Notes under the pieces: generated by a model
Told to the model about the DNA's origin: nothing
The model's database searches: none
The model's input: the letters and a program-made list of their open reading frames with translations, nothing else
Source of the DNA: an uncultured Chitinophagales bacterium
GTDB lineage: Bacteria; Bacteroidota; Bacteroidia; Chitinophagales; S012-47
DNA length: 58,401 bases
Direction: 5' to 3'
NCBI GenBank assembly: GCA_964471795.1
Contig: CAYYHM010000008.1
Location: forward strand, 1 to 58,401
Shown: positions 1,214 through 16,930 of the stretch, in pieces
Numbering within the stretch: position 1 is the stretch's first letter
How the letters are laid out: every line of letters starts with the position of its first letter
Program-made: the position numbers and the translations under genes

Positions 1214-2116
1214 TTACCAATACATGAGCTTCATGCAGAAGATGCTTCCACCCGATTTCAGGAATTCACCGGTATACACCTCCGTACATCGATAGCCCTT
1301 GCCCGTGAGCAAGGTGGTAACTGTGGCAGCGCCGGCAGGCACCAGCGCTACCCGCTTGCTTGCATCAATGTCATACAGCACGTGGGCATTCAACCCCATG
1401 TACCGGTTATTTTCTGCTGCAGGAACGTACAGCACCTCCGGGAAACTGCTGTGGATCCGGCCCAGGCTCTCCCTGTCGAATGCGTCGGGTACGATGAGCA
1501 CAGTGCTGTCACTAATCGGCAAGAAGCAGGTGTCGAGGTGGTAGCCGTGAGGATCCGTCAGGTGAAGGGGAACAATGGGCACCTGTAACAACTGGCTGAG
1601 TGGCTCCAGTGCCTCCAATTGTGTACGGAAGCCATATCCGCCGAACAACAGCCGTCGGCTCGGATGTGGCAGCAGGTCGCCATTGCCCTCCAGTGAAAAC
1701 CGATCACCCCAGGGAAGCACCTCATATCCTTCCCCTGCCAATGCTTCTGTGAGCAGCGGAACTTCCCCCTGTCTGCCGGCATGCCGCATCAACGAGGGCA
1801 CCACCACCCGTTTTCCGTCGGGCATCAGGAAGGGCAATGCCGGATTGGCTGTAAACACCTGATCGGGAAACCCTTCGGTTGCCTGCAGTATCTGTTGCTT
1901 CTCCAACAAGCCCTGCTCTTGCCACAATGTATAATGCATTGTAAGATTATCCCATTCAAGTTGAGCTACCGTTGTATCTACCTGTTGCCGGGAGGTCATG
2001 AATATGTTGTCGTCACCGGCGAGGGCGAAGTACTGCGGTGTGGCACGAAGCACCTTCCGTGGTATCGGTAATTCAGGCAGCTGCATGATGCGTGCCGTAT
2101 CGGGTTGTAGTAACAT
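1214..2116 (-). CDS. Amidinotransferase / arginine deiminase-type (guanidino-group modifying) family protein, CtlX-like
   Basis: 300 aa. The C-terminal GGSIFCMKLMYW matches the catalytic-Cys end typical of the amidinotransferase/DDAH/ADI superfamily. It lies next to an arginase-family gene, converging on it with a 32-nt gap. Confidence 0.6.
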   Translation of the reverse strand: MLLQPDTARIMQLPELPIPRKVLRATPQYFALAGDDNIFMTSRQQVDTTVAQLEWDNLTMHYTLWQEQGLLEKQQILQATEGFPDQVFTANPALPFLMPDGKRVVVPSLMRHAGRQGEVPLLTEALAGEGYEVLPWGDRFSLEGNGDLLPHPSRRLLFGGYGFRTQLEALEPLSQLLQVPIVPLHLTDPHGYHLDTCFLPISDSTVLIVPDAFDRESLGRIHSSFPEVLYVPAAENNRYMGLNAHVLYDIDASKRVALVPAGAATVTTLLTGKGYRCTEVYTGEFLKSGGSIFCMKLMYW

Positions 2117-5246: not shown

Positions 5247-5273
5247 AACAGATGATTGATTTTTTCGAAACTT

Positions 5274-5281
5274 CAAATATA
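5274..5281 (-). promoter_or_regulatory. -7 box TATATTTG upstream of the S46 peptidase gene
   Basis: Exact TAnnTTTG on the minus strand, 28 nt upstream of ATG 5246. Confidence 0.4.
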
Positions 5282-5334
5282 ATGGCAAATGCAGCATAGC
5301 CTGCTCATTTAATGAACCTTAACAAAGTAATCCC

Positions 5335-7467
5335 TTACAAATGCCTGTCGAAATAATCGGCAATGTGCTCATACAGATGGATCCTGTCGCGGCCGCGTAC
5401 GTTGTGCGGATGGCTTGGGTAGGGAAAAAAGTCTACGTGCTGCCGTTTCTTGATGGCGGCCTCCATAAAGTTCATGGCATGTGCCGGCAGCACCACATCA
5501 TCCTGCAACCCATGGATGATCAGCAGTCGCTTGCCGGCTAATTTGTCTACATAGTTGCTTAGGTTGCTGGCTGCGAACCCTTCTTCGTTTTCATCAATCC
5601 TGTCCATGTAGCGCTCACCATACATGATCTCGTACATGCGCCAGTCTGTTACCGGCCCTCCGGCTACACCTACGGTAAACAAGTCCGGCTTCTTCAGTAG
5701 CATGCTCATGGTCATGAACCCGCCATAGCTCCAACCATGTACACCGATGCGAGATCCATCAACATAGGGCAGCTTTTTCAGGTAAGCGGCGCCTACCGCC
5801 TGATCTTCTACCTCCACAGAACCCATCTGCCGAAACAATGCCTGCTCAAAGTCGCGCCCACGGCCATCAGAGCCCCGGCTGTCCAGCGTAAACACCACAT
5901 ACCCTTGCTGTGCCAGGTAATACAGGAACAGGTTGGCGTTGTGCAGCCAGCTGTTGCGGATCAGCTGCAGGTGTGGACCACCATAAACATAGATGATGGC
6001 AGGGTACTTTTTGGCGGCATTGAAATTACCCGGCTTGATGATGCGCCCATACAGCGTGGTGCCGTCATCAGCCTGCAGGGTCAGGACCTCTGCTGATGGC
6101 AGGGCGTAGTTGGCCAGTGGGTTGTCTGCAGTATGCAGGGTGTGCACTGCAGTACCCTTACGGGTTTCCAACAGGATAATCTCGTTGGGCAGGTCATGCC
6201 GGCTGTATTCATCAATCAAGTAGCTTCCATTGGGATGCAGCCTGCCGGTATGCACCCCTTCGGCAGACCCTACTCGGGTCATCTCGCCATCTTTCAGCCG
6301 GATTTGGTAGTGGGTGCGATCCAGCGGACTATCTTTTGTACCCGTGATATACAGGTATTGTTCCCTGGCATCCATACCCAGCACTTCTGTCACTATCCAG
6401 CTTCCCTCCGTAAGCTGTTGCAGTTGTATCCCGTCCGTGTTGTACAGATACAGGTGATTGAACCCATCGCACTCACTCTGCCATAGGAACAAGTCCTTGT
6501 CTTTGAACAAGAAGGCAGGGCCATGCTCGGGCTCCACATATTTGGGATCGGTTTCCGTGAACAAGGTCTTCATGAATACTCCGCCGGCAGCATCGTACTG
6601 CTGCAGTTGCATGGTATCCTGCCCACGGTTGAGGCGGGCTACATACAGAAAGTTACCATCCGGGCTGAACGTGAGATTCGTGAGGTATTGGTCATAGGGC
6701 TCCCCTGATTCCAGATATACGGTCTTGCCGGTAGTTACGTCGAACAGCCCCACCGTGGTGAATTGTGAGCTATCGCCATTCATCGGATAATTGACCAGTG
6801 TGGTGGTGGGTGGAATGGTACTGTAGTCTGTCAGCGGATAGTCCGTAACCATGCGCTGATCTATGCGGTAAAAGGCAAGCCTGCGGCCATCGGGCGACCA
6901 GAACTGACCTTCAGTAACACCAAATTCATTGCGATAGGCAGCAACTCCATACTCGATTTCCCGGCTGCCGTCGCGGCTGATTCTGACCGGGGCGTCCAAT
7001 CCCTTGCCGGCATATAGGTCATGCTCCAACACATAAGAATAGCTGTACGCATCGGTATAATGCAGCTCCGCAGCACCGGTTGGCACCACGATGCGGGGCC
7101 TCAGGCTGTCGTGGCCGGCAGTGTAGGACCACACATACCCACCATATACCAGCGACACTGTTTTGGCTGTATGCCAGCGAAGTGCCGGCATGTAACGCAT
7201 AGGCTGCAGGGAGTCCGGCAGGTAGCTGTTTAGCTTGTCCAGGCTCAGGTAGACAGTGGAACTGAACTTCTTGGTTTCGGTGATCATCACTGAATCGCCA
7301 TCATTCACGTACGTGTAAGCATCAGCGTCGGGCACCCACTGCAGCTGCCGCAGGGATGTGGGATACAGATCGCGACGAAGGATGATGTCTTCCAGGGTGA
7401 GCGTCTGCTGCTGAGCGGTCAGCGATAGCGTGGCGATATACAGGAGCAGGGTCAGCAGCTTTTGCAT
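5335..7467 (-). CDS. S9 family peptidase, dipeptidyl peptidase IV-like
   Basis: N-terminal beta-propeller region plus a C-terminal prolyl-oligopeptidase domain with the GWSYGG nucleophile motif. Signal peptide runs from MQKLLTLLLYIATLSLTAQQ. Start at 7467 is supported by a TAGATTTG box 19 nt upstream. Confidence 0.85.
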   Translation of the reverse strand: MQKLLTLLLYIATLSLTAQQQTLTLEDIILRRDLYPTSLRQLQWVPDADAYTYVNDGDSVMITETKKFSSTVYLSLDKLNSYLPDSLQPMRYMPALRWHTAKTVSLVYGGYVWSYTAGHDSLRPRIVVPTGAAELHYTDAYSYSYVLEHDLYAGKGLDAPVRISRDGSREIEYGVAAYRNEFGVTEGQFWSPDGRRLAFYRIDQRMVTDYPLTDYSTIPPTTTLVNYPMNGDSSQFTTVGLFDVTTGKTVYLESGEPYDQYLTNLTFSPDGNFLYVARLNRGQDTMQLQQYDAAGGVFMKTLFTETDPKYVEPEHGPAFLFKDKDLFLWQSECDGFNHLYLYNTDGIQLQQLTEGSWIVTEVLGMDAREQYLYITGTKDSPLDRTHYQIRLKDGEMTRVGSAEGVHTGRLHPNGSYLIDEYSRHDLPNEIILLETRKGTAVHTLHTADNPLANYALPSAEVLTLQADDGTTLYGRIIKPGNFNAAKKYPAIIYVYGGPHLQLIRNSWLHNANLFLYYLAQQGYVVFTLDSRGSDGRGRDFEQALFRQMGSVEVEDQAVGAAYLKKLPYVDGSRIGVHGWSYGGFMTMSMLLKKPDLFTVGVAGGPVTDWRMYEIMYGERYMDRIDENEEGFAASNLSNYVDKLAGKRLLIIHGLQDDVVLPAHAMNFMEAAIKKRQHVDFFPYPSHPHNVRGRDRIHLYEHIADYFDRHL

Positions 7468-7485
7468 GGCATAGATAATTTCCTC

Positions 7486-7493
7486 CAAATCTA
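7486..7493 (-). promoter_or_regulatory. -7 box TAGATTTG upstream of the S9 peptidase gene
   Basis: Exact TAnnTTTG on the minus strand, 19 nt upstream of ATG 7467. Confidence 0.4.
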
Positions 7494-7549
7494 GCAGGTT
7501 CTCCTGTACCACAAGAAGCCCCAATGGTGACATAAGTCACTTTTTGCCT

Positions 7550-7614: not shown

Positions 7615-7803
7615 ATGTTTCAGCATAACCTCAGCTTTGCAGATATCGGCGTTCGCTACATGATTATGATGGTGTTCATGATTTTGGCAGGAGCGCTACA
7701 GATGATGGGCTTTCTCATCATTGGCGTAATCTTCTTCCTGACAGCCATCCTTGGTTGGTGTCCGATATACGATATGCTCGGCATATCTACCAGAAAAGAA
7801 TAA
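7615..7803 (+). CDS. Small membrane protein, DUF2892 (YgaP-like) family
   Basis: 62 aa, two hydrophobic helices, C-terminal GWCPIYDMLGIST motif typical of DUF2892. Confidence 0.6.
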   Translation: MFQHNLSFADIGVRYMIMMVFMILAGALQMMGFLIIGVIFFLTAILGWCPIYDMLGISTRKE

Positions 7804-7863
7804 TCAGAAGCCGGTAATCGGCTTACAAAGAACTTCATAGATTGTGGTCAATCAGGCTTAAGT

Positions 7864-7893
7864 GGGGGGCAGTAATGTCCCCTGCTTTTTTTT
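7864..7893 (+). terminator. Possible weak terminator downstream of the DUF2892 gene
   Basis: Short GGGG/CCCC stem (7866-7869 / 7879-7882) followed by a T8 run (7886-7893). The stem is short. Confidence 0.25.
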
Positions 7894-8002
7894 GTAGCAG
7901 TGGCAAGCAGGTGCCCCTGGTCGAGTTGGTAAAATAGGGCTCAGGTAATTTTTTCCTTTGCGCCACTTGACATATCTCCCTGAAATAGTCATCTTTAGAC
8001 TT

Positions 8003-8917
8003 GTGAAACATTTCTTACTACAGGCTGGTGTGGCAATTCTGTTGCTTGCGTCTACGGCCTGCACCAAAAAAACCACCCTGATACCGGACAATGATGCGCC
8101 CTATTACGGCGATGTCCCTGCCGTGTTGGTAGAGAACTATGTCAACAGGCTATACATTGACCTGCTGGGCAGAGAGCCATTGGATAGCGAGATGTTGCGC
8201 GATGTGGCGTACCTCCGCGCCGGGGAACTGGCCATCGCTTCCCGGGACAGTCTTACCCAACGATTACAGTCAGATACTGCCTTCATCTCCGGTGATTCCT
8301 CCTACTTCATCGCCTATCACAAGCGGTTTTATGATATGTGTAAGGCACGGCTGATAGAGGGTGTCAGCAACAAAGAAATCTCTGATCAGCATGGGGTGTA
8401 CTATGCCGAATGGCTGAAAGATTCCATCAACGGCAATCAGCAGGGCATGGACGTCAAACAGCGGCAGATGGACAAGCTGACAGCCATCCTGCAGAGCGAA
8501 TACGACTATCGGGATGGTAATATGGCTATCAATACCATGCATGCCATACTGGTAGATAACTACTTCTACGACCTCATCAACATGAATACCTTCAACTTTA
8601 TCAATGCCACCTTCGACGACCTGTATTTCCGGTATCCCACGCAGGCTGAGTTCAATACGGCATTCGATATCATTGAATTCAATACCTCTTCGGTCATTTT
8701 CGGGCTCCCGGCACAGAACAAGGAAGACTACATCCGGATCATTACATCGCACCGCGAGTTCTACGAAGGCCTCATCATCTGGGCCTATACCACGCTACTG
8801 TCGCGGGAGCCTACCACATCGGAGACCTACTCGCTGATGCTTACCTTCTTTGACAACCCTGATTTCCGTTGGCTGCAACGACAAATCGTTACCACTGATG
8901 AATATGCGAACTTTTAG
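8003..8917 (+). CDS. Lipoprotein with three DUF1549/DUF4214-like repeats (operon gene 1)
   Basis: Lipobox LLLASTAC. Repeated motif: NRLYIDLLGREPLDSE, DDLYFRYPTQAEF, TTLLSREPTTSET. The ORF track begins at TTG 7958; the GTG at 8003 gives a canonical lipoprotein signal (VKHFLLQAGVAILLLASTAC). The start is uncertain. Confidence 0.55.
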   Translation: MKHFLLQAGVAILLLASTACTKKTTLIPDNDAPYYGDVPAVLVENYVNRLYIDLLGREPLDSEMLRDVAYLRAGELAIASRDSLTQRLQSDTAFISGDSSYFIAYHKRFYDMCKARLIEGVSNKEISDQHGVYYAEWLKDSINGNQQGMDVKQRQMDKLTAILQSEYDYRDGNMAINTMHAILVDNYFYDLINMNTFNFINATFDDLYFRYPTQAEFNTAFDIIEFNTSSVIFGLPAQNKEDYIRIITSHREFYEGLIIWAYTTLLSREPTTSETYSLMLTFFDNPDFRWLQRQIVTTDEYANF

Positions 8918-9383
8918 ACTTTGGCTGCCGATAGGCTTGTTGTGGCTGGCTGCCTGCCGCCCTACGCCGATCTATGAGGTGAATCCGGTGGCGGTATCCA
9001 TGCCCAATGCCCAAAAAAGCAAGCTGAAGTCGGAGGAACAGTTCATCTCCATCCTGTATGCCAACTTGTTCCAAAAGGCCTTATCTGCCAACGAACTGCT
9101 GGACATGACCGATGTGATCTTCAGCATAGGCGACAAGGATCTTGCCCACGAAGTAATCGTCAGCAACCTGATGAACAATCCCGATGTGCTGTTGCCTTCC
9201 GATAGCCTGATGCGTGCTGATGTAGATGCTTTCATCGAAGACACCTATGTGCGCTTTCTGGTACGACGACCTACAGAAGGTGAGCTTACCTGGTTCCGGA
9301 ACTTTTTATCCAATCATCCTGACCTGAGCGTGGAGATGGTGTACATCGCCTTCGCCCTCAGTCACGAATACTTGTATTACTAA
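8898..9383 (+). CDS. Lipoprotein with two DUF1549/DUF4214-like repeats (operon gene 2)
   Basis: MNMRTFRLWLPIGLLWLAAC lipobox. Motifs ILYANLFQKALSANEL and YVRFLVRRPTEGELTWF. The start overlaps the end of gene 1 by 20 nt (an alternative ATG is at 8904). Confidence 0.55.
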   Translation: MNMRTFRLWLPIGLLWLAACRPTPIYEVNPVAVSMPNAQKSKLKSEEQFISILYANLFQKALSANELLDMTDVIFSIGDKDLAHEVIVSNLMNNPDVLLPSDSLMRADVDAFIEDTYVRFLVRRPTEGELTWFRNFLSNHPDLSVEMVYIAFALSHEYLYY

Positions 9384-9387
9384 GCCT

Positions 9388-10743
9388 ATGGACCGGAGAA
9401 GATTCATTCAGAAAGCCACCTTGGCAGCAGCCTCCGCCATAGCTGCGCCCTACATCCTGCCATCGGGCCGGTTGTTTGCGGCAACAGGCAGTCAGCTGGC
9501 AGAGCATGTGGTATATGTGCTGTTCGCCGGTGGTGTACGCCAGCAGGAATCCATCCTGCAGCGGTATCTGGCCGACAGCCAGGGGTTGAATAACCTGGAG
9601 GGCAACCTGATGGTGAACATGCTCAACGGGGCAGCTCCACAACAGAAGGTAGTTTTCGGCACCAATCCTGCCGTAGGGCCAAAAGGCAGCATTCCTATTC
9701 CGAAGCTGTTGCCGGGCTCACAGACCTTTGAAACCATCGGCACCCTGTTCTCTGAAGTACAGGCAACGCAAGTGGGGCACTATGGAGGCCTCAACTCACT
9801 GGTAACCGGCAACACTGCCTTCACACAGGGACTCAAGCAAAAGCCACTGTACCCGACCATCTTCGAATATGTGCGCCGCCATCTGGGCGTACCTGCCACC
9901 AAGGTGTGGTTTGTGGGCAACGGCATTGGCAACTCCGTGCCACTACTCAACTACAGCTCGCATGACAACTATGGCGCTGCCTACGGCGGCAACTTCTTTG
10001 CGCCGCGCATCACGTTCGGCGCCAAGGGAGAAGATCATCTTGCAAACGCAAAGATCTACCATCCCGAAGAGGAGCTTTCTCCGATGTACAAGATGAAATT
10101 CTTCCTGGATCAATCATTCTCACAGGGTGGTGGCAGCCTGCTGGAATACGGCATCCAAAACACGGAGGAAGAGCGCGAGGAGATCCGCAGCTTCATGCAG
10201 CTGATGTTCCAGAAGAAACAGAATGGCATATTGAACATGCCGCCGGTGGCCGATAATGGCGACCTGCAGACTATCGGATATGCAGCGGAGGTGATTCAAC
10301 ATTTCCGGCCTACTCTCACCGTGGTGAACCTGAATGATGTGGACGGCTGCCACAGCAACTTCACCGGTTATCTACGCAATCTGCACCGTGCTGATCATGG
10401 TTTGGCGCACCTGTGGAATGTGATACAAAGCACACCGGGCATGCAAAACAACACCGTGATGATAGCCATTCCGGAATGTGGCCGCAATGAGCAGCCCAAC
10501 CCGATACTCGATGAAAACGACTGGCATGCCTTCGACCACAGCGACGCCAACGCACGCCGTGTGTTTGCCTTGATGGCAGGAAAGAACATACCGGCAGGCT
10601 TGCGCATCGGCACGCCGGGCTCACCGGTAGGCACCACCATGGACGGCGTACCCACCATTGCGGAAATCCTGGGATGCAAGGACGAGGTTGTCAACAGTGG
10701 ACTCATCAGCGGGCTTTCCCAATCACTATTCGACAGGATGTAG
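9388..10743 (+). CDS. DUF1501-like protein (sulfatase/alkaline-phosphatase superfamily) with twin-arginine signal (operon gene 3)
   Basis: MDRRRFIQKATLAAASAIAAP Tat motif. VVYVLFAGGVRQQES near the N-terminus and ECGRNEQPN...HAFDHSDANA near the C-terminus resemble conserved DUF1501 blocks. Starts 4 nt after gene 2. Confidence 0.7.
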   Translation: MDRRRFIQKATLAAASAIAAPYILPSGRLFAATGSQLAEHVVYVLFAGGVRQQESILQRYLADSQGLNNLEGNLMVNMLNGAAPQQKVVFGTNPAVGPKGSIPIPKLLPGSQTFETIGTLFSEVQATQVGHYGGLNSLVTGNTAFTQGLKQKPLYPTIFEYVRRHLGVPATKVWFVGNGIGNSVPLLNYSSHDNYGAAYGGNFFAPRITFGAKGEDHLANAKIYHPEEELSPMYKMKFFLDQSFSQGGGSLLEYGIQNTEEEREEIRSFMQLMFQKKQNGILNMPPVADNGDLQTIGYAAEVIQHFRPTLTVVNLNDVDGCHSNFTGYLRNLHRADHGLAHLWNVIQSTPGMQNNTVMIAIPECGRNEQPNPILDENDWHAFDHSDANARRVFALMAGKNIPAGLRIGTPGSPVGTTMDGVPTIAEILGCKDEVVNSGLISGLSQSLFDRM

Positions 10744-10746
10744 CCA

Positions 10747-11688
10747 ATGAGACTTTTACTGACACTGATAGCGATGAGCCTGCTGATGGCCTCCTGCAAG
10801 AAGGGCGGAGATCCAAACCCTTTTGATGACCCCTCTTTGCAACCGCCTGTGGACTCAGCCCTGGCGATGGAGCCACCCCCAACGAGTTTTGCGGGCATAC
10901 ATCAGCACGTATTCCGGCCTACCTGCGCCAACTCAGGCTGCCACGACGGCACCTTTGAGCCTGACTTCCGAACCATCGAAGGCGCCTACAACACGTTGGT
11001 GTACCAGCCCGTGATCAAGAACAATGCTGCCGGCACCTTTACCTATCGTGTGGACCCCTTCAGCCCATCCACATCCGTGTTGCTGGAGCGGCTCATCAAC
11101 GATATCGACGGCATTTCGGGCATCATGCCCCTGAGTGTAGACCCGGGCAGTGACTGGGCTGTAAAGAAAGACACCTTCATCAACTACATCCGTGCCTGGA
11201 TTGCTGATGGCGCCCGCGACATGTTCGGGCGGCTGCCGCAAAAGGGCAATCAGGAACCACAGATGCAAGGGGTGGTAGCCTTTGTGGCCGGCCAGCCACT
11301 GCCACGGAATCCGGGTCAGGGTGCTTTGCGTGTGCCGGCCAGCGCCGGCAGCATCGACGTGTGGTTCAGCATCACCGATGACTCCACAGCCACCCCTTCG
11401 CTGAAAGAGAACCGTGTGCTGGTTTCGGCACGGCGCGACGACTTCAGCCAGGCCACCGGCTACAACCTGACCATCCAGGCCACGCCCTTGCAGGCTACAG
11501 GCTATCTGGGTAGCCCCGTCGGGTATTACCACAAAATCACCTTTACCAATCCGGGGCAGTGGGGGCCTCCAGGCACCCGCGTATACCTGCGGGTATACGT
11601 GCAGGATGCCACCCATCCCGTCACAGAAATCCCTGAGACAGGCAGTTTCGATTACATCAAGGAATACTTTGCCATTGAACTGATATGA
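10747..11688 (+). CDS. Lipoprotein with PSCyt-like (planctomycete cytochrome-like) N-terminal motif carrying CX4CH instead of CXXCH, plus a beta-rich C-terminal half (operon gene 4)
   Basis: Lipobox LLMASC. HQHVFRPTCANSGCHDGTFEPDFR ... STSVLLERLIND resembles the PSCyt1 layout. Starts 3 nt after gene 3. Confidence 0.55.
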   Translation: MRLLLTLIAMSLLMASCKKGGDPNPFDDPSLQPPVDSALAMEPPPTSFAGIHQHVFRPTCANSGCHDGTFEPDFRTIEGAYNTLVYQPVIKNNAAGTFTYRVDPFSPSTSVLLERLINDIDGISGIMPLSVDPGSDWAVKKDTFINYIRAWIADGARDMFGRLPQKGNQEPQMQGVVAFVAGQPLPRNPGQGALRVPASAGSIDVWFSITDDSTATPSLKENRVLVSARRDDFSQATGYNLTIQATPLQATGYLGSPVGYYHKITFTNPGQWGPPGTRVYLRVYVQDATHPVTEIPETGSFDYIKEYFAIELI

Positions 11689-12119
11689 GAACAAGCCTGC
11701 TGATATCTGTCCTGCTCCTTGTAGCTGCCTGTAGCAAGAAGAATCCTGTGATCTCCCCCATTCCGGAGATCAGGCTGCAGGAGGTAGCGCCTACCTCACT
11801 CCAGCAATTTCAGGAGCAGGTTACCATACAGCTGGCCTACACGGACGGCGATGGCGACCTGGGATTCGAACACCCGGACTCCCTGTCGCTGCGGGTGCAG
11901 GATGCCCGCCTTTCGCAACCCGACTGGTATTTTGTGCAGCCGCTGGCACCTGTGGGCAGCAACGTGGCCATACAGGGCGTCCTCAACTTTGCCATCAGCG
12001 GCACATTCCTGCTGGGCAACGGCAATCAGGAGACAACCACTTTTTCCATCATGATCAAGGATAGGGCCGGCAACTGGAGCAATGAGGTAACCACGCCTGT
12101 CATCACCATCAAGCGATAA
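11685..12119 (+). CDS. Small lipoprotein, probable Ig-like beta-sandwich (operon gene 5)
   Basis: Lipobox LLVAAC, YTDGDGDLGF motif. ATGA overlap with gene 4. Confidence 0.5.
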   Translation: MRTSLLISVLLLVAACSKKNPVISPIPEIRLQEVAPTSLQQFQEQVTIQLAYTDGDGDLGFEHPDSLSLRVQDARLSQPDWYFVQPLAPVGSNVAIQGVLNFAISGTFLLGNGNQETTTFSIMIKDRAGNWSNEVTTPVITIKR

Positions 12120-12120
12120 C

Positions 12121-15100
12121 GTGAAGAGAACCGCTGCCATAGTACTGATCCTTTGCCTCTTCCGGCTGTCCACCCTGCCGGCACAGGCTGTCTACAACAT
12201 GGCCAATCAGACGGTTACCGATTGCTATGGCACCCTACTCGATTCTGAGGCCGGTCAGACCAATGGTCACTACAACCACAACGAAAACCTGACCTTCCGC
12301 ATCTGTCCCACCAACGCTGCGCGTGTTACCCTCACCTTCACCGGTATATTTTGCACAGAACAAGGGTTTGATGTGCTGCGCATCTTCGATGGCCCCGACA
12401 CCAACAGCACCCTGCTGGGCACATGGTCGGGCACTACTTCACCGGGAACTGTGGTAGCGAACTCAGGGTGTATGACCATCCATTTCCGGTCGGATGCCAA
12501 CCGCAGCTGCGACGGATGGGACGCCGACTGGACAGTGGACCTGATTCCACCCACACCACCCGCTATCACCGCCGTTACCAATGTGAGCTGTTTCTCCAAC
12601 ACCTTTCGCATCACCCTGGACAAACCTATCCCGTGCGACTCAGCCTATGCCTCGGCATTTACCCTGTCGGGTCCCGGTAATCCACAGGTAGCCTCAGCTG
12701 TTGCTGTGAACTGCACCGGCGGCGTTACACAGACCATCGAGCTGACCATGAACCCGGGCTTCAGCGACAATGGCAACCATGGAGTGCGCTTCGTCTATAA
12801 CTATCTGGATGACTGCGATTCGGTGTGGGTATTTACCCTGCAAAGGGCTTTTTCTGTAACCGACTGCCCGCTGGAGGTGGACATCATCAGCTCCTCGGAC
12901 ACCATTTGCCAGGGTGGTTGTGTAACGTTGCAAGCTGATGTGACGGGTGGCAATCCTGCCACGTATGCCTACAGCTGGAACATGGGCCTGCCTCCCACAG
13001 GAGGACCGCACGTGGTATGCCCTACCAGCACCACCACTTATGCCGTTACCGTTACCGATGCAGGCCCTAGCCCTGCAGCTACTGCCACCCGAAGGATTGT
13101 GGTAGTGCCCAAACCCAATGCCGGCACCGACAGAACGGTATGCCAGTACGGTAGCGCCATCACCCTCACCGGCACTCCTGCTTTCGGCTGGTGGACAGGC
13201 CCGGGAATCATCAATAACTCGGCCGGCACCTTCCATCCCGACACAGCCGGCCCCGGCACGCATCGGATTCTCTACTGGCGCAACGGCTGTGCCGATACGA
13301 TGTTGGTTACTGTGCACCCTGTATATGCAGGGTGGGACGAAGCTGCCTGCCCCAATGCACCTGCCTGGCTGGTAAACGGTGGCACTCCTGCCGGTGGCAG
13401 CTGGAGTGGCAGCGGCATCACGGCAGCCGGCATGTTTACCCCACCGGGTGTCGGCAACTACACCGTTACCTACACGGCTCCCAACGGTTGCAGCCATAGC
13501 AAAGAGATCCATGTAGCACCCTTGCTCATCAACGACCGCGATACCATCTGCAGCAGCACAGGGCTGTACTACCTGCCGCACCAACCTCCGGGGGGTGTAT
13601 GGAGCGGCACGGGTATTACCAACCCGCTGACCGGTGAATTCAATCCCGTTATATCCGGCCAAGGCAACTTCCCGCTGACCTACACCGTTCAGGGATGCCG
13701 CGATACTACCTGGTTGTTCGTGCAAACCATCAACGCCCCGAATAGCGCCCTCTCCTGCCCCTCACAGGGCATCGTGCAGCTGCCGAAAGCTATCCCGCCG
13801 GGTGGCTATTGGAGTGGCCGCGGCATTGTGGACTCGGCCCTCGGCACCTTCGACGCCATGGACAACAACGGCAAGAACTTCAACGCTACCCTGGTGTACC
13901 ACTATGCCAACTGCACGGATACCATGCCCATGTATGTGCGGATTACCACCATTGGCGTAGACACCTTGTGGTTTTGTGAAAACGACACGATTACCCTGCT
14001 GGGATGGGATCAGGTACGCCGCAATCCGGGCAATGGTAAGTGGAGTGGGGCAGGCATCATAGACCCCGACTATCCGGGCAAATTCGATCCGTCGGTGGCC
14101 GGACCGGGCACACACACCCTTACCTATGTAGCCAACACCTGCAGCGACAGCATGGTGATGGTGGTGTATCCCGCAGAAACGGTTCAGCCGGATACTATCG
14201 TCTGCCAGACCTCAGGCGCATTCAGTCTGCGCACCCTGTTCCCCGGAGGCACCTGGAATGGCCCGGGTATCACCAACAGTACGCTGGGAATCTTTAACCC
14301 GCAGATCACAGGACTGGGCAATCATACAGTGTACTACACCCATTTTGTAAACTGTGTGGACTCGCTTACCATCACTGTAGAGCCGCTGGTAACCATCAAC
14401 CTCACCCCATTGCCGGGATTTGTCTGTTACACCGACACCGTGCTGCCATTGACCGCCACCCCTTCGGGCGGTATGTGGTCCGGTGCAGGCGTATCGGGTA
14501 GCGGTTTCAATCCTGCCACGGCAGGCGCCGGCATTCACACGATCTACTATCAATACGGCAGTGGCGATTGTGCCCAAACCGACTCTCTGCAGGTAGAGGT
14601 TGGTGAGCCCATTGCCATTACTCCCATCAGCCAGCAGGACTCTATCTGCTACGGCACGTATGTCACCATCGGTGTAACCGCCACCGGAGGCAGCACAGGC
14701 GTGTTCACGTACCAATGGAGTAATGGCGCCGGCAACAAAAGTTTTCAGGCTGTAAACCCATTGTCTACCACCACCTACCGCGTAACCGTTACCGATGGCT
14801 GCAGCGATGAGGCCATACAGGAAATAGTGGTATTCGTGCATCCACGTATACAAGCCACTACAGTATCAGGTCCGAAGGTGTGCTATGGCGACACCGGATG
14901 GGTTGCCGTAAAGCCGGCTCCCGGTAAAAACTACAGCTATGCCTGGAACACCAGCCCGGTATTTACCGGTGACACGCTGTATGGAAAAGGTGGCGCCTAT
15001 CAGGTGGAGGTCTCGGACAATGCCTCCGGATGCACACTAACCCTGGACACCGAAATTGACGGGTATAGCTTTATCAGAGCCGCCTTTACCCCCAACCCTG

Positions 15101-15606
15101 CCGGTGACTGCATCGACTACCTCGATCCCACTATTGAACTGCTGGACAACTCTACCGGCGGCAACACCGGCTGGTGGGATTTGGGTGATGGCACACAGCG
15201 CATCTACCAGCCCGGCCAGTCCATTGCGCATACATTTGCCGACACCGGAACATTTGTGGTGACCTTGCGCATCAGCAATGCCGGTGGCTGCAGTGATTCC
15301 ACCAGTATGCCCATTTGTGTAGAGCCAGCTACTACATTATACGTACCCAACGCATTTACTCCGAATGGCGATGGCCGCAATGACCAGTTCAGGGCAGTGG
15401 GGATCGGCATCGTTTCGTACCGGATGATGGTATTCAACCGATGGGGTGAAAAGCTTTTTGAAAGCAACGATATGACCATTGGCTGGGATGGCACCTACAG
15501 GGGTGAAAGAGTAGAAAATGATGTCTACACCTACCTGATTGCCTACACCGATATCACCTCACCGGTGGTGAAATACCAGAAAGGAGTTGTAGCGGTAGTA
15601 AGGTAA
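12121..15606 (+). CDS. Large secreted CUB-domain / repeat / PKD protein with T9SS type-B (gliding-motility-associated) C-terminal sorting domain (operon gene 6)
   Basis: Sec signal. CUB-like domain (CYGTLLDSEAG...LRIFDG...CDGWDADW). Seven approximately 70-aa repeats (G-W-S/T-G-x-G-I ... F-N/D-P ... H-T-L/V-T/Y-Y ... C). Two CxGxxVxLxAxxxGG...Y.W modules. PKD-like module (WDLGDGT...HTF...G.F.VTL). C-terminus YVPNAFTPNGDGRNDQF...FNRWGEKLFES...GWDG...YTY matches the type-B CTD. GTG start lies 1 nt after the gene 5 stop. Confidence 0.85.
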   Translation: MKRTAAIVLILCLFRLSTLPAQAVYNMANQTVTDCYGTLLDSEAGQTNGHYNHNENLTFRICPTNAARVTLTFTGIFCTEQGFDVLRIFDGPDTNSTLLGTWSGTTSPGTVVANSGCMTIHFRSDANRSCDGWDADWTVDLIPPTPPAITAVTNVSCFSNTFRITLDKPIPCDSAYASAFTLSGPGNPQVASAVAVNCTGGVTQTIELTMNPGFSDNGNHGVRFVYNYLDDCDSVWVFTLQRAFSVTDCPLEVDIISSSDTICQGGCVTLQADVTGGNPATYAYSWNMGLPPTGGPHVVCPTSTTTYAVTVTDAGPSPAATATRRIVVVPKPNAGTDRTVCQYGSAITLTGTPAFGWWTGPGIINNSAGTFHPDTAGPGTHRILYWRNGCADTMLVTVHPVYAGWDEAACPNAPAWLVNGGTPAGGSWSGSGITAAGMFTPPGVGNYTVTYTAPNGCSHSKEIHVAPLLINDRDTICSSTGLYYLPHQPPGGVWSGTGITNPLTGEFNPVISGQGNFPLTYTVQGCRDTTWLFVQTINAPNSALSCPSQGIVQLPKAIPPGGYWSGRGIVDSALGTFDAMDNNGKNFNATLVYHYANCTDTMPMYVRITTIGVDTLWFCENDTITLLGWDQVRRNPGNGKWSGAGIIDPDYPGKFDPSVAGPGTHTLTYVANTCSDSMVMVVYPAETVQPDTIVCQTSGAFSLRTLFPGGTWNGPGITNSTLGIFNPQITGLGNHTVYYTHFVNCVDSLTITVEPLVTINLTPLPGFVCYTDTVLPLTATPSGGMWSGAGVSGSGFNPATAGAGIHTIYYQYGSGDCAQTDSLQVEVGEPIAITPISQQDSICYGTYVTIGVTATGGSTGVFTYQWSNGAGNKSFQAVNPLSTTTYRVTVTDGCSDEAIQEIVVFVHPRIQATTVSGPKVCYGDTGWVAVKPAPGKNYSYAWNTSPVFTGDTLYGKGGAYQVEVSDNASGCTLTLDTEIDGYSFIRAAFTPNPAGDCIDYLDPTIELLDNSTGGNTGWWDLGDGTQRIYQPGQSIAHTFADTGTFVVTLRISNAGGCSDSTSMPICVEPATTLYVPNAFTPNGDGRNDQFRAVGIGIVSYRMMVFNRWGEKLFESNDMTIGWDGTYRGERVENDVYTYLIAYTDITSPVVKYQKGVVAVVR
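13117..14601 (+). repeat. Seven tandem approximately 210-bp coding repeats inside the CUB/T9SS gene
   Basis: The protein-level periodicity was read directly: WWTGPGI, SWSGSGI, VWSGTGI, YWSGRGI, KWSGAGI, TWNGPGI, MWSGAGV. Each is followed by F-x-P...G...(T/Y)Y and a Cys. Confidence 0.7.
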
Positions 15607-16234: not shown

Positions 16235-16930
16235 ATGCGCTGTATCATAGTAGATGACGATCCGATTCAACGGCAACTGCTGGAAAGCTATGTTGGGGAA
16301 CTGGACAGCCTGCAGCTGGCTGGTTCCTACGAAAACGCTACAGCAGCCTTGAAGGGCCTGAGGGATCAGGACGTAGATCTCATTTTCCTGGATGTGGAAA
16401 TGCCGATGATGAGCGGACTGGACTTTCTGTCTACGCTGACTAATCCACCACAGGTGATCCTGGTAACGGCCCATGAGAAATATGCCATGTCGGCCTTCGA
16501 CTTCAACGTCACGGACTTCCTCAAGAAACCCATCGAGTTTGCCCGCTTTCTAAAAGCAGTAAACAAGGTGCTGGATTCCAAGAAATCAGGGGGCACCCCT
16601 GTGAATCAGGTAGAGGACTTTGACATGTTCGTAAAGGACGGCACGCAGCTGGTAAAGATCAATACCTCGGACATTTTCTTCATCAATGCGCTAAGCGACT
16701 ATGTGAAGATTGTGACGTCCAAGAAAGAATATGCCATTCTGTATACCATGAAAAGCCTGAGCGATCAGCTGCCGGTGAAGCGATTCATGCGGGTGCATCG
16801 TTCCTTTATCGTTCGACTCGACAAGATCGACAGGATAGCAGATCACGTGATAGAAATCGGCAAGCATTCCATTCCGGTGAGTAAGTCATATCGCGACGAA
16901 TTGTACGAACGGCTAAACCTGCTCAAATAA
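16235..16930 (+). CDS. LytR/AlgR-family response regulator (REC + LytTR DNA-binding domain)
   Basis: MRCIIVDDDP...DLIFLDVEMPMMSG receiver motifs. C-terminal FMRVHRSFIV...I LytTR signature. Confidence 0.9.
   Translation: MRCIIVDDDPIQRQLLESYVGELDSLQLAGSYENATAALKGLRDQDVDLIFLDVEMPMMSGLDFLSTLTNPPQVILVTAHEKYAMSAFDFNVTDFLKKPIEFARFLKAVNKVLDSKKSGGTPVNQVEDFDMFVKDGTQLVKINTSDIFFINALSDYVKIVTSKKEYAILYTMKSLSDQLPVKRFMRVHRSFIVRLDKIDRIADHVIEIGKHSIPVSKSYRDELYERLNLLK

What the first reader, a model, noticed from the sequence alone, without database searches (positions are those of the whole stretch)
7958..15606. Six-gene all-exported operon: split PSCyt/DUF1549-like lipoproteins + Tat-DUF1501 + T9SS-secreted CUB protein
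**What the sequence shows**
- Six same-strand ORFs are packed with junctions of -20, +4, +3, -4 and +1 nt.
- Every product has an export signal. Four have lipoboxes (LLLASTAC, LLWLAAC, LLMASC, LLVAAC). One has a twin-arginine signal (DRRRFIQK). One has a Sec signal plus a T9SS type-B C-terminal domain.
- Genes 1 and 2 carry five copies of a (L/F)Y-x2-(L/F)-x-R-x-P-x3-E-like motif: NRLYIDLLGREPLDSE, DDLYFRYPTQAEF, TTLLSREPTTSET, ILYANLFQKALSANEL, YVRFLVRRPTEGEL. This motif resembles the conserved core of DUF1549/PSCyt2 (and DUF4214).
- Gene 3 looks like DUF1501.
- Gene 4 has a PSCyt1-like block.

**Context and hypothesis**
- In Planctomycetes, DUF1501 genes are characteristically paired with giant PSCyt-DUF1549-DUF1553 proteins, and the function of that pair is still unknown.
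- Here the same domain vocabulary appears to be distributed over separate lipoproteins in a Bacteroidota genome, and it is transcriptionally fused to a 1161-aa surface adhesin-like T9SS cargo.
- I infer a cell-surface or periplasmic multi-protein module of unknown function. This is the best candidate in the window for an undescribed system.
Basis: partly seen in the sequence, partly recalled or inferred. Interest (0 to 1): 0.7.

Follow-up and report, generated by a model that had tools for sequence, protein, structure and literature searches.

The report
Conserved exported six-gene operon, Bacteroidota
This is a real six-gene operon of exported proteins, kept in the same order in many uncultured aquatic Bacteroidota, and it is a distant, split-up relative of the still-unexplained DUF1800/DUF1501/cytochrome gene modules, so its biochemical job remains unknown.

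Summary
The six tightly packed same-strand genes, their export signals and the repeated helical motif are all present as described. The cluster is not a chance arrangement. A pattern scan matched relatives of gene 3 in at least 590 stretches of species-representative genomes. In 49 of the 52 related genomes with enough flanking DNA, all six genes occur in the same order.

- **Gene 3:** it does not match Pfam DUF1501. Its model has an alkaline-phosphatase-superfamily fold, the twin-arginine signal is invariant, and it is clearly homologous to a protein that just passes the DUF1501 threshold.
- **Genes 1 and 2:** these are paralogous helical lipoproteins. Together they line up, in order, with the C-terminal 200 residues of a DUF1800-like protein encoded next to that DUF1501 relative.
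- **Gene 4:** it has no Pfam match, PSCyt1 included. It keeps an invariant Cys-x4-Cys-His...Met-Pro...Trp-Ile-x-x-Gly-Ala signature, which looks like a class-I cytochrome c, followed by a beta-sandwich.
- **Gene 6:** a CUB/Ig-repeat/PKD protein with a T9SS type-B sorting domain. It is a clade-specific addition, because more distant lineages keep genes 1-5 without it.

This is a new variant of a known but uncharacterised kind of module, and its function is inferred, not shown.

The parts
7860..7897 (+). Terminator-like hairpin plus T-run after the upstream YgaP-like gene. It marks the upstream boundary of the operon.
   Evidence: 12-pair stem with 6 G-C pairs followed by TTTTTTTT.
8003..8917 (+). 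Gene 1: a 304-aa lipoprotein (the maximal ORF starts at 7958). It is helical and carries three copies of the (L/F)Y..L.R.P...E motif. The family gives weak DUF4214, phycobilisome-linker, PSCyt2 and DUF1800 hits.
   Evidence: ORF. Cys20 is invariant in 40 homologues. Pfam hits among members: DUF4214 25/40, PBS_linker 17/40, PSCyt2 11/40. The family profile hits ApcE/linker REP domains in the PDB. Residues 229-302 align to 705-779 of a DUF1800-like protein.
8898..9383 (+). Gene 2: a 161-aa lipoprotein and a paralogue of the N-terminal part of gene 1. It corresponds to the extreme C-terminus of DUF1800-type proteins.
   Evidence: Cys20 is invariant. DUF4214 hits, mostly sub-threshold, in 36/42 members. 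hhalign gives 91% to the gene 1 N-terminus. hhalign gives 96%, E 1.1e-9, to residues 778-902 of the L082 902-aa protein.
9388..10743 (+). Gene 3: a 451-aa Tat-signal protein with an alkaline-phosphatase-superfamily fold. It belongs to a divergent sister family of DUF1501 and is the presumed catalytic subunit. Its Tat motif RRRF lies at 9394-9405.
   Evidence: No Pfam hit. More than 2028 homologues, all named 'hypothetical'. Invariant R3 R4 F6, D319, H322, E363, D383, H384. AF2 pTM 0.80. Foldseek hits sulfatases, alkaline phosphatase and LtaS at probability 1.0. hhalign gives 99.9% to P0163, which passes DUF1501.
10747..11688 (+). Gene 4: a 313-aa lipoprotein. The N-terminal helical domain (residues ~45-160) carries an invariant C60-x4-C65-H66 (nt 10924-10944), M127-P128 and W151-I152-x-x-G155-A156. 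The C-terminal domain (172-312) is a beta-sandwich.
   Evidence: Invariant columns in 44 and 35 homologues, and in 30%-identical distant ones. No Pfam hit in 44 members. AF2 pLDDT 82. Foldseek gives only weak Ig/C2-like hits. hhalign gives 79% to a CX3CH domain of another Bacteroidota protein.
11685..12119 (+). Gene 5: a 144-aa lipoprotein with an invariant Y-x-D-x-D-G-D-L-G-type acidic motif. No known family.
   Evidence: Invariant C16, Y52, D54, G57, G60 in 45 homologues. No Pfam, NCBIfam or PDB hit. Retained in the distant locus L084 at 41% identity.
12121..15606 (+). Gene 6: a 1161-aa T9SS type-B cargo. It has a signal-like N-terminus, a CUB domain (nt 12265-12528), about 7-8 Cys-bracketed Ig-like repeats of ~70 aa (five match GGxWSGxGI exactly), a PKD domain (nt 15172-15303) and a CHU_C/type-B sorting domain (nt 15343-15558).
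   Evidence: Pfam and NCBIfam hits above threshold. Repeats and Cys spacing. Orthologues at a median 39% identity over the full length in 52/54 loci. Absent from distant gene 1-5 loci.

Best explanation
**What it is.** This is a vertically conserved cell-envelope operon of uncultured aquatic Bacteroidota. Genes 1-5 form a periplasmic core. That core is a split, lipoprotein-anchored version of the DUF1800-DUF1501(-cytochrome) modules known from other phyla, whose function is also unknown.

**The parts.**
- Gene 3 is the presumed enzyme. It is folded in the cytoplasm, exported by Tat, and built on the alkaline-phosphatase/sulfatase scaffold. It has a conserved Asp/His/Glu cluster of the kind that binds metal in that superfamily.
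- Genes 1 and 2 are paralogous all-helical lipoproteins. Together they replace the C-terminal half of the single DUF1800-type partner protein.
- Gene 4 is a lipoprotein with a class-I-cytochrome-c-like domain (Cys-x4-Cys-His plus a Met-Pro loop) followed by an Ig-like beta-sandwich.
- Gene 5 is a small lipoprotein with an acidic motif.
- Gene 6 is exported by the type IX secretion system and displayed on the cell surface. It is a clade-specific addition, not part of the core.

**Proposed working (inferred).**
- The helical lipoproteins probably tether or regulate the enzyme at a membrane.
- Gene 4 probably binds haem and passes electrons or senses redox state.
- Gene 5 possibly binds Ca2+.
- The lipoproteins hold gene 3 and the gene 4 haem domain together at the periplasmic face of a membrane. 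There gene 3 cleaves or transfers a phospho- or sulfo-ester-type group on a substrate that is still unknown.
- Gene 6 supplies an outward-facing binding arm in this clade.

**Shown:** gene order conservation, export signals, folds, and remote homologies. **Inferred:** complex formation, metal and haem binding, catalysis, and any functional link to gene 6.
For: **Operon anatomy and conservation**
- Anatomy is shown.
- All six genes are in order in 49/52 loci. Per gene, presence is 69/70, 76/76, 72/73, 67/69 and 52/54.
- No other flanking gene is broadly conserved.

**Export signals**
- Lipobox Cys and Tat RR-F are invariant columns.

**Gene 3**
- It has an alkaline-phosphatase-superfamily fold.
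- D319/H322/E363/D383/H384 are invariant and shared with P0163, which passes Pfam DUF1501.

**Genes 1 and 2**
- hhalign places gene 1 residues 229-302 and gene 2 residues 34-161 consecutively on residues 705-902 of a protein whose residues 710-901 score DUF1800 (25.5 bits), PSCyt2, PSD1 and DUF4214. That protein sits directly upstream of P0163.

**Gene 4**
- The C-x4-C-H...M-P...W-I-x-x-G-A signature is invariant down to 30% identity. A 165-aa version carrying only this domain follows the gene 3 homologue in L086.
- The L082 relative of gene 3 is followed by a multihaem cytochrome c.
- PVC DUF1501 modules are likewise paired with cytochrome-motif proteins (PMC3542564).

**Core versus add-on**
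- Genes 1-5 are kept without gene 6 in L084/L085, and by gene sizes at the P0152 locus.
- L031 keeps genes 2-5 only.
Against: - No member of any of the six families has been studied. All database names are 'hypothetical'.
- Gene 3 fails the Pfam DUF1501 model outright. Structural matches have low TM-scores of 0.35-0.46. A catalytic nucleophile could not be assigned.
- Gene 4 hits no cytochrome family in Pfam. Foldseek found no cytochrome match. The model is least confident exactly at the Cys-x4-Cys-His motif (pLDDT <50 at residues 61-69). CX4CH is a non-standard haem-attachment motif.
- The bridging DUF1800-like protein is itself 0.6 bit under the Pfam cut-off.
- Physical interaction and co-transcription are untested, because no RNA data were found.
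Confidence: 0.6

Rival explanations
1. Nutrient-scavenging module. Gene 6 captures a phosphorylated or sulfated polymer at the cell surface. Gene 3 removes the ester groups in the periplasm, as a sulfatase or phosphatase does within a polysaccharide-utilisation locus.
For: - Gene 3 has an alkaline-phosphatase/sulfatase fold.
- Gene 6 has CUB, PKD and Ig repeats typical of binding proteins.
- In Verrucomicrobia, PSCyt genes often sit near sulfatases and carry carbohydrate-binding modules (PMC5615132).
Against: - No SusC/SusD, TonB-dependent receptor, glycoside hydrolase or transporter is conserved next to the cluster.
- The cluster is unusually uniform, with 61% median identity for gene 3 and fixed gene order. 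Utilisation loci are normally variable.
- The core exists without gene 6.
Confidence: 0.2
2. Envelope-biogenesis enzyme. Gene 3 acts like LtaS, EptA or OpgB, which are also alkaline-phosphatase-superfamily enzymes. It would transfer a phospho-alcohol group onto a lipid, glycan or surface protein on the periplasmic side, with the lipoproteins as membrane tethers. Gene 6 could be one client.
For: - LtaS/LtaP and a Vibrio alkaline-phosphatase-superfamily protein are among the best structural matches, with the highest target-normalised TM-scores of 0.41-0.46.
- Very high sequence conservation and fixed gene order across the loci fetched suggest a housekeeping role.
- Four lipoprotein partners place it at a membrane.
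Against: - Gene 3 has no transmembrane domain, unlike LtaS or EptA.
- This reading leaves the cytochrome-like domain of gene 4 unexplained.
- No lipid or glycan synthesis genes are conserved nearby.
Confidence: 0.2
3. Primarily a redox (electron-transfer) module, as proposed for the PVC DUF1501/PSCyt clusters. Gene 4 would be a monohaem cytochrome and gene 3 a Tat-exported cofactor enzyme that oxidises or reduces a periplasmic substrate.
For: - Gene 4 has the invariant Cys-x4-Cys-His...Met-Pro signature.
- A multihaem cytochrome lies next to the DUF1501 relative in L082.
- Tat export fits a cofactor-loaded enzyme.
- This hypothesis was put forward for the PVC modules in PMC3542564.
Against: - To my knowledge the alkaline-phosphatase superfamily has no redox enzymes (established knowledge, not tested here).
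- Gene 4 has no Pfam cytochrome hit and no structural cytochrome match.
- Haem binding is unproven.
Confidence: 0.15
4. Genes 1-5 are accessory factors for secretion, anchoring or movement of the gene 6 adhesin. This would be analogous to sprC/sprD with sprB/sprF in gliding Bacteroidota.
For: - Gene 6 is a type-B T9SS cargo.
- A cognate-type PorP/SprF gene follows it in about 22 related loci.
- Gene 6 gives weak SprB-repeat hits.
Against: - Genes 1-5 are conserved without gene 6 in more distant lineages, and genes 2-5 without it in L031.
- Gene 3 is much better conserved than gene 6 (61% against 39% median identity).
- No PorP/SprF gene is in the window.
Confidence: 0.08
5. The six genes are merely neighbours with no common function.
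For: No transcript or interaction data are available.
Against: - All six genes are in order in 49/52 species-level genomes.
- Start and stop codons overlap or abut.
- Core synteny persists down to 30% identity.
Confidence: 0.02

Closest known systems
DUF1800 (PF08811) - DUF1501 (PF07394) operon pair, widespread in Proteobacteria and other phyla; function unknown (PMC5122149)
   Same: - A helical partner gene lies directly upstream of a Tat-signal, alkaline-phosphatase-superfamily gene.
- Gene 3 is homologous to a protein that passes DUF1501.
- The C-terminus of gene 1 plus gene 2 are colinear with DUF1800 profile positions ~217-419.
   Different: - The partner is split into two separate lipoproteins, each with its own signal peptide.
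- Neither the window proteins nor gene 3 reach the Pfam cut-offs.
- Gene 3 has an extra ~45-residue insertion.
- Three further conserved genes (4, 5, 6) are attached.
Planctomycetes/Verrucomicrobia DUF1501 + PSCyt1-PSCyt2(DUF1549)-PSD1(DUF1553) modules (Kamneva et al. 2012, PMC3542564; He et al. 2017, PMC5615132)
   Same: - The same vocabulary is present: a Tat-exported DUF1501-like protein, a Cys/His cytochrome-like motif, and helical PSCyt2/PSD1-like repeats.
- Sub-threshold PSCyt2 hits occur in 11/40 gene 1 homologues, and PSD1 hits in a few.
- Function is unknown in both cases.
   Different: - The PVC modules use giant multidomain proteins present in many paralogous copies. Here there are small separate lipoproteins in a fixed, highly conserved arrangement (copy number per genome was not checked).
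- The motif is CX4CH rather than CXXCH.
- There is no PSCyt1 HMM match.
- A T9SS cargo is appended.
T9SS type-B cargo with cognate PorP/SprF (the SprB/SprF paradigm of Flavobacterium; recalled knowledge)
   Same: Gene 6 has a CHU_C/TIGR04131 sorting domain and Ig-like repeats. In about 22 related loci a PorP/SprF gene follows it directly.
   Different: - Gene 6 is much smaller than SprB, has a CUB domain, and is well conserved in length.
- No PorP/SprF gene lies next to it in this window.
- It is embedded behind a periplasmic enzyme module.
Phycobilisome linker REP / DUF4214 helical domain
   Same: The repeated (L/F)Y..L.R.P...E motif of genes 1 and 2 scores against DUF4214 and PBS_linker_poly, and against ApcE/linker chains in the PDB.
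   Different: Scores are mostly below threshold. The host is non-photosynthetic and the setting is a periplasmic lipoprotein. This is a fold-level resemblance only.

Membership tests
DUF1501 (PF07394) | Scores at or above the Pfam gathering threshold (27 bits) | tested here: not met
   Gene 3 gives no hit at E<1. All 120 listed homologues have no precomputed Pfam domain.
DUF1501 (PF07394) | Demonstrable homology to a bona fide member | tested here: met
   P0163 scores 28.6 against 27 bits for DUF1501. Gene 3 against P0163 gives phmmer E 1.3e-29 and hhalign 99.9% over 366 columns.
DUF1501 (PF07394) | Alkaline-phosphatase-clan fold and twin-arginine signal | tested here: met
   Foldseek probability is 1.0 to sulfatases, alkaline phosphatase and LtaS. 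RR-F is invariant. TIGR01409 scores 16.1 against 16.7.
DUF1800 (PF08811) | Scores at or above the Pfam gathering threshold (26.1 bits) | tested here: not met
   No hit for window genes 1 or 2. Only 1 of 40 gene 1 homologues hits, at E 0.049.
DUF1800 (PF08811) | Colinear homology to the DUF1800 region of a partner protein encoded upstream of a DUF1501 gene | tested here: inconclusive
   Gene 1 residues 229-302 align to 705-779 (E 6.5e-4, probability 27%). Gene 2 residues 34-161 align to 778-902 (E 1.1e-9, probability 96%) of the L082 902-aa protein. That protein scores DUF1800 at 25.5 bits, 0.6 bit below the cut-off.
PSCyt2/DUF1549 (PF07583) and PSD1/DUF1553 (PF07587) | Scores at or above the Pfam gathering thresholds (29.8 / 28.5 bits) | tested here: not met
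   PSCyt2 hits 11/40 gene 1 homologues, best E 4.5e-5. PSD1 gives E 0.24 for gene 2 and hits 2/40 gene 1 homologues. The PSD1 hit shown (11.2 bits) is far below its cut-off; bit scores for the family-member hits were not returned.
PSCyt1 (PF07635, planctomycete cytochrome c) | HMM match and a CXXCH haem-binding motif | tested here: not met
   0 of 44 gene 4 homologues hit PSCyt1 or any cytochrome family. The motif is C-A-N-S-G-C-H, that is CX4CH.
Class-I c-type cytochrome (general) | Covalent haem at Cys-Xn-Cys-His with a distal Met, in a helical fold with N- and C-terminal helices | tested here: inconclusive
   C60, C65, H66, M127, P128 and the C-terminal WIxxGA helix are invariant. The model has four helices in this domain, including one before the motif and one at its C-terminal end. 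Foldseek found no cytochrome match, and pLDDT is <50 at the motif. Haem binding is not testable here.
DUF4214 (PF13946) | Scores at or above the gathering threshold (23.2 bits) | tested here: inconclusive
   Window gene 2 scores 20.4 and gene 1 scores 13.6-13.8 bits, both below the cut-off. 36/42 and 25/40 family members hit at E<0.1, with best values of 8.6e-6 and 2.2e-5. The L084 gene 1 homologue scores 23.4 bits, which passes.
T9SS type-B cargo (TIGR04131 / CHU_C) | C-terminal type-B sorting domain above threshold | tested here: met
   TIGR04131 scores 55.2 against 35 and CHU_C 57.1 against 27, at residues 1075-1146.
T9SS type-B cargo (TIGR04131 / CHU_C) | Cognate PorP/SprF-like gene immediately downstream | tested here: not met
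   tblastn finds no PorP/SprF homologue anywhere in the window. One follows gene 6 in 22 related loci.
Bacterial lipoproteins (genes 1, 2, 4, 5) | Signal peptide ending in a lipobox with an invariant +1 Cys; processing by Lgt/LspA | tested here: inconclusive
   The Cys is invariant at the end of a hydrophobic N-terminus in all four families. No dedicated predictor or experiment was available. The residues after the Cys are mostly K-K, not the acidic surface-export signal. A periplasmic location is therefore inferred.

The most novel reading that the evidence does not exclude
Genes 1-5 encode a previously undescribed periplasmic machine. In it, a haem lipoprotein with an unusual CX4CH attachment site works together with an alkaline-phosphatase-fold metalloenzyme. 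The chemistry would be new for that superfamily, for example a redox-coupled cleavage or modification of an ester-linked envelope or dissolved-organic-matter compound. The same principle would then explain the hundreds of unexplained DUF1501/DUF1800/PSCyt modules in Planctomycetes, Verrucomicrobia and Proteobacteria.
Probability: 0.2. Interest if true: 0.85.

Novelty: new variant of a known kind. Interest (0 to 1): 0.58.

Why it matters
DUF1501, DUF1800 and the 'planctomycete-specific' cytochrome/PSD domains are among the most abundant unexplained gene modules in environmental bacteria. They have had no assigned function since they were first described (PMC3542564, PMC5615132, PMC5122149).

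This operon is a compact version in which each domain is a separate small protein, with a fixed, highly conserved gene order. That makes each part individually expressible and testable: haem binding for gene 4, metal content and activity for gene 3, and pairwise interactions among genes 1-5.

A pattern scan matched gene 3 relatives in at least 590 stretches of species-representative genomes of largely uncultured aquatic Bacteroidota, so the module probably matters for how these abundant freshwater and marine bacteria work. Three of the six families (genes 3, 4 and 5) have no Pfam model and could be defined from the alignments made here.

Tried and rejected
- **Direct Pfam and NCBIfam scans of the six proteins.** Nothing for genes 3-5, and only sub-threshold hits for genes 1 and 2. 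Direct membership of DUF1501, DUF1549 and PSCyt1 was rejected.
- **PDB sequence searches.** Single-sequence searches for genes 3 and 4, and profile searches for genes 1, 3, 4 and 5, found nothing except weak phycobilisome-linker hits for gene 1.
- **Foldseek of the gene 4 model.** Only generic Ig/C2-like beta-sandwich matches (E>1e-3) and no cytochrome. The PSCyt1 idea could be neither confirmed nor excluded structurally.
- **hhalign of gene 4 against the L082 multihaem cytochrome.** No relationship.
- **hhalign of gene 1 against the 616-aa ORF upstream of gene 2 in L031.** That ORF is a GyrB/ParE-type protein, not a long form of gene 1.
- **Search for further conserved neighbours.** Only PorP/SprF in a subclade. 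There are no transporters, TonB receptors or cytochrome-maturation genes.
- **Downstream 188-aa ORF, LytTR regulator and hybrid kinase.** They are syntenic only in the nearest relative, L002, so they are not part of the module.
- **Rfam scan of the window.** No RNA elements.
- **RNA-seq evidence for a single transcript.** Only DNA metagenomes hold the sequence.
- **Promoter and terminator scan.** Counts are no better than in shuffled sequence inside the operon. The only convincing terminator lies upstream, at 7860-7887.
- **Third whole-database homologue search.** Deliberately not used. Family members would have filled the 120-row list, so it could not have answered the PSCyt1 question.

Full report

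Yes, with small corrections.

- **ORFs and junctions.** One search lists six + strand ORFs at 7958-8917, 8850/8898-9383, 9388-10743, 10747-11688, 11685-12119 and 12121-15606.
- **Start of gene 1.** It is more likely the GTG at 8003 (MKHFLLQAGVAILLLASTAC, 304 aa) than the TTG at 7958. Homologues have about 20 residues before the lipobox cysteine.
- **Upstream boundary.** A 62-aa YgaP-like membrane protein gene (7615-7803) is followed by a strong terminator-like hairpin at 7860-7887. This marks the upstream boundary.
- **Lipoboxes.** The four cysteines are invariant columns in alignments of 40-45 homologues.
- **Tat signal.** R3, R4 and F6 of gene 3 are invariant in 24 homologues.
- **Gene 6.** It scores above threshold for CUB, PKD and the T9SS type-B sorting domain.
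- **Motif.** The five quoted motif copies are in the translations.

**2. Is it more than chance?**

- **Spread.** A pattern scan of one genome per GTDB species matched gene 3 relatives in at least 590 stretches. The best 80 are all Bacteroidota MAGs: Flavobacteriales, Bacteroidia, Chitinophagales, Vicingaceae and Cryomorphaceae.
- **Gene order.** tblastn of the six proteins against these loci shows the same six genes in the same order almost everywhere. Counting only loci with enough flanking DNA, presence is gene 1 69/70, gene 2 76/76, gene 4 72/73, gene 5 67/69 and gene 6 52/54. In 49 of 52 loci with room for all six, all six are in order.
- **Identity.** Median identities are 45, 53, 61, 43, 43 and 39% for genes 1-6.
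- **Other neighbours.** No other neighbour is broadly conserved. The one exception is a PorP/SprF gene after gene 6 in about 22 loci of one subclade, and it is absent from this window.
- **Source.** The window comes from an aquatic metagenome and also encodes PorZ, so the host has a T9SS.

**3. What are the parts?**

*Gene 3*
- It has no Pfam hit even at E<1. It has more than 2028 homologues, all unnamed and without Pfam domains.
- Its AlphaFold model (pTM 0.80) matches sulfatases, E. coli alkaline phosphatase, LtaS/LtaP and other alkaline-phosphatase-superfamily structures. Foldseek probability is 1.0, but TM-scores are modest at 0.35-0.46.
- An exhaustive search of 1.8 billion representatives found 468 clusters. 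Among ten distant ones, P0163 passes DUF1501 (28.6 against 27 bits) and four others hit it below threshold.
- hhalign of the gene 3 family against P0163 gives 99.9% over 366 columns. The shared motifs are HVV.V.FAGGVR..E, VGHYG....TGNT, PTIFEY.R, D..H, PE.GR and DH.D.
- Gene 3 is therefore a divergent sister of DUF1501, not a Pfam member.

*Genes 1 and 2*
- The window copies only graze DUF4214 and PSD1.
- Across families the weak hits recur. For gene 2, DUF4214 hits 36/42 members. For gene 1, DUF4214 hits 25/40, the phycobilisome linker 17/40, PSCyt2/DUF1549 11/40, PSD1 2/40 and DUF1800 1/40.
- The gene 1 profile hits ApcE/linker REP domains in the PDB.
- The N-terminal ~100 residues of genes 1 and 2 are paralogous (hhalign 91%).
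- The informative bridge is locus L082, where P0163 is encoded. The 902-aa protein just upstream has residues 710-901 matching DUF1800 profile positions 217-419 (25.5 bits against a cut-off of 26.1), plus weak PSCyt2, PSD1 and DUF4214 hits.
- hhalign places gene 1 residues 229-302 on 705-779 (E 6.5e-4) and gene 2 residues 34-161 on 778-902 (E 1.1e-9, 96%) of that protein.
- The 'split' idea is thus supported, but the nearest unsplit form is DUF1800-like.

*Gene 4*
- Neither it nor 43 homologues hit any recurring Pfam family.
- The model (pLDDT 82) has a helical N-domain (helices 48-63, 77-84, 111-118, 137-153) and a confident beta-sandwich (172-312). Foldseek gives only weak generic sandwich matches.
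- C60, C65, H66, M127, P128, W151, I152, G155 and A156 are invariant even in homologues only ~30% identical (L084, L086).
- In L086 a 165-aa protein consisting of this domain alone (CFVAACH) follows the gene 3 homologue.
- The order helix, Cys-Xn-Cys-His, Met-Pro loop, C-terminal helix is the layout of class-I c-type cytochromes (established knowledge). The spacing here is CX4CH, not CXXCH.
- hhalign links the domain (79%, E 1.6e-5) to a CX3CH N-terminal domain of another Bacteroidota protein.
- PSCyt1 membership is not met. Haem binding is a reasonable but untested inference.

*Gene 5*
- It has no match anywhere.
- It keeps an invariant acidic Y-x-D-x-D-G-D-L-G-type motif.

*Gene 6*
- Its domains, in order, are a CUB domain, about 7-8 Cys-bracketed Ig-like repeats of ~70 residues (five of them match GGxWSGxGI exactly), a PKD domain, and a type-B sorting domain.

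**4. What is the conserved unit?**

- Distant relatives of gene 3 were traced to their contigs. L084/L085 (gene 3 37-41% identical) keep homologues of genes 1, 2, 4 and 5 in order but have no gene 6.
- The P0152 locus (30% identical) has the same series of gene sizes and no gene 6.
- L086 has a gene 1-C-terminal-like protein, gene 3 and the gene 4 N-domain only.
- L031, a complete-chromosome MAG, has genes 2-5 only. A GyrB/ParE-type gene lies upstream and a fatty-acid desaturase downstream.
- L087 has gene 3 alone.
- The core is therefore genes (1)2-5, and gene 6 (with PorP/SprF in some lineages) is a clade-specific addition.

**5. How does it most likely work?**

*Shown*
- Operon-like packing and co-conservation.
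- Export signals.
- An alkaline-phosphatase-superfamily fold with a conserved Asp/His/Glu cluster in gene 3.
- Remote homology of genes 1 and 2 to the DUF1800-type partner.
- A cytochrome-c-like signature in gene 4.
- T9SS targeting of gene 6.

*Inferred*
- The residues after the lipobox Cys are mostly Lys-Lys rather than the acidic surface-export signal. Genes 1, 2, 4 and 5 therefore probably stay periplasmic.
- They probably hold the Tat-exported enzyme at a membrane.
- Gene 4 probably carries haem and supplies electron transfer or redox sensing.
- Gene 3 probably cleaves or transfers a phospho- or sulfo-ester-type group on an unknown substrate.
- Gene 6 is probably a surface-displayed binding arm in this clade.

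*Supporting pattern and rivals*
- A DUF1501-like enzyme recurs next to a Cys/His cytochrome motif in three different architectures: this operon, L082 with a multihaem cytochrome, and the PVC PSCyt modules (PMC3542564). This is the strongest argument that the pairing is functional.
- The rivals (nutrient scavenging, envelope biogenesis, a purely redox role, an accessory role for gene 6) are listed with their evidence. None can be excluded with sequence tools.

**6. Comparison with what is known, and novelty**

- The DUF1800-DUF1501 pair (PMC5122149) and the PVC DUF1501/PSCyt1/PSCyt2/PSD1 modules (PMC3542564; PMC5615132) are the closest known systems. Both remain functionally unexplained in the papers found.
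- This operon differs in five ways. Its parts are separate small lipoproteins. It has a fixed, highly conserved arrangement. It uses a CX4CH motif. It includes an extra small lipoprotein. It has an appended T9SS cargo.
- Genes 3, 4 and 5 have no Pfam model.
- I rate it a new variant of a known (but uncharacterised) kind.
- Interest is moderate to high. It is not categorically new, but it offers a minimal, dissectable form of a long-standing unknown.

Noticed in passing
window 7615-7803 (+) and 7860-7897: A 62-aa YgaP-like transmembrane protein (Pfam 4.8e-12) is followed by the only convincing intrinsic-terminator-like hairpin in the region.
   Followed up: partly
window 3036-5297 (-) and 5335-7533 (-): Two exported peptidases lie back-to-back upstream of the operon: Peptidase_S46 (dipeptidyl-peptidase 7/11-like, E 5e-204) and DPP-IV/S9. 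The DPP-IV gene was found near the cluster in only one related locus (L038); the S46 gene was not checked.
   Followed up: partly
window 15624/15651-16190, 16235-16930, 16933-19689 (+): An uncharacterised 188-aa cytoplasmic-looking ORF (no Pfam hit), a LytTR response regulator and a 918-aa hybrid histidine kinase directly follow gene 6. No terminator-like site was found in between. This trio follows gene 6 only in the closest relative, L002 (a homologue of the 188-aa ORF alone occurs on the opposite strand in L075).
   Followed up: partly
window 41316-43664 (+): PorZ (N-terminal beta-propeller, E 1.3e-36), a T9SS component. This confirms that the host has type IX secretion.
   Followed up: no
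window 30565-33582 (-), 35438-38752 (-), 38727-41144 (-), 1214-2116 (-): A 1005-aa protein with only a C-terminal amidohydrolase domain. An isoleucyl-tRNA-synthetase-type gene overlapping by 26 nt with an MMPL/sterol-sensing-domain transporter gene. A 300-aa ORF with no Pfam match.
   Followed up: no
L031:14917-16497 (+) and the L037 minus-strand ORF ending near position 1196: Bacteroidota proteins with an N-terminal Cys-X(2-3)-Cys-His...MP...W(I/V)xxGA domain. The L037 domain is related to the gene 4 N-domain (hhalign 79%). The L031 protein fuses its domain to a copper type-II (PHM/DBH-like) monooxygenase and a T9SS type-A tail. This suggests a wider family of cytochrome-like modules attached to exported enzymes in this phylum.
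   Followed up: partly
L082:5237-13281: A four-gene set around a DUF1501 protein: a PKD + DUF1800-like protein (902 aa), DUF1501 (398 aa, Tat), a multihaem cytochrome c3/c7-like protein with LVIVD repeats (1026 aa), and an EF-hand protein (335 aa). This is another undescribed architecture of the same module type.
   Followed up: partly
L031:9506-12769: A complete-chromosome MAG keeps only genes 2-5 at this locus, with a gyrB/parE-like gene upstream and a fatty-acid desaturase downstream. Whether genes 1 and 6 lie elsewhere in that genome was not checked.
   Followed up: partly
window 9448-9480 (gene 3 residues 21-31): The stretch PYILPSGRLFA directly after the Tat signal's hydrophobic region is nearly invariant across the family. 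This is unusual for a region next to a signal-peptide cleavage site. It may mean the signal is not cleaved, or it may be a docking motif.
   Followed up: no
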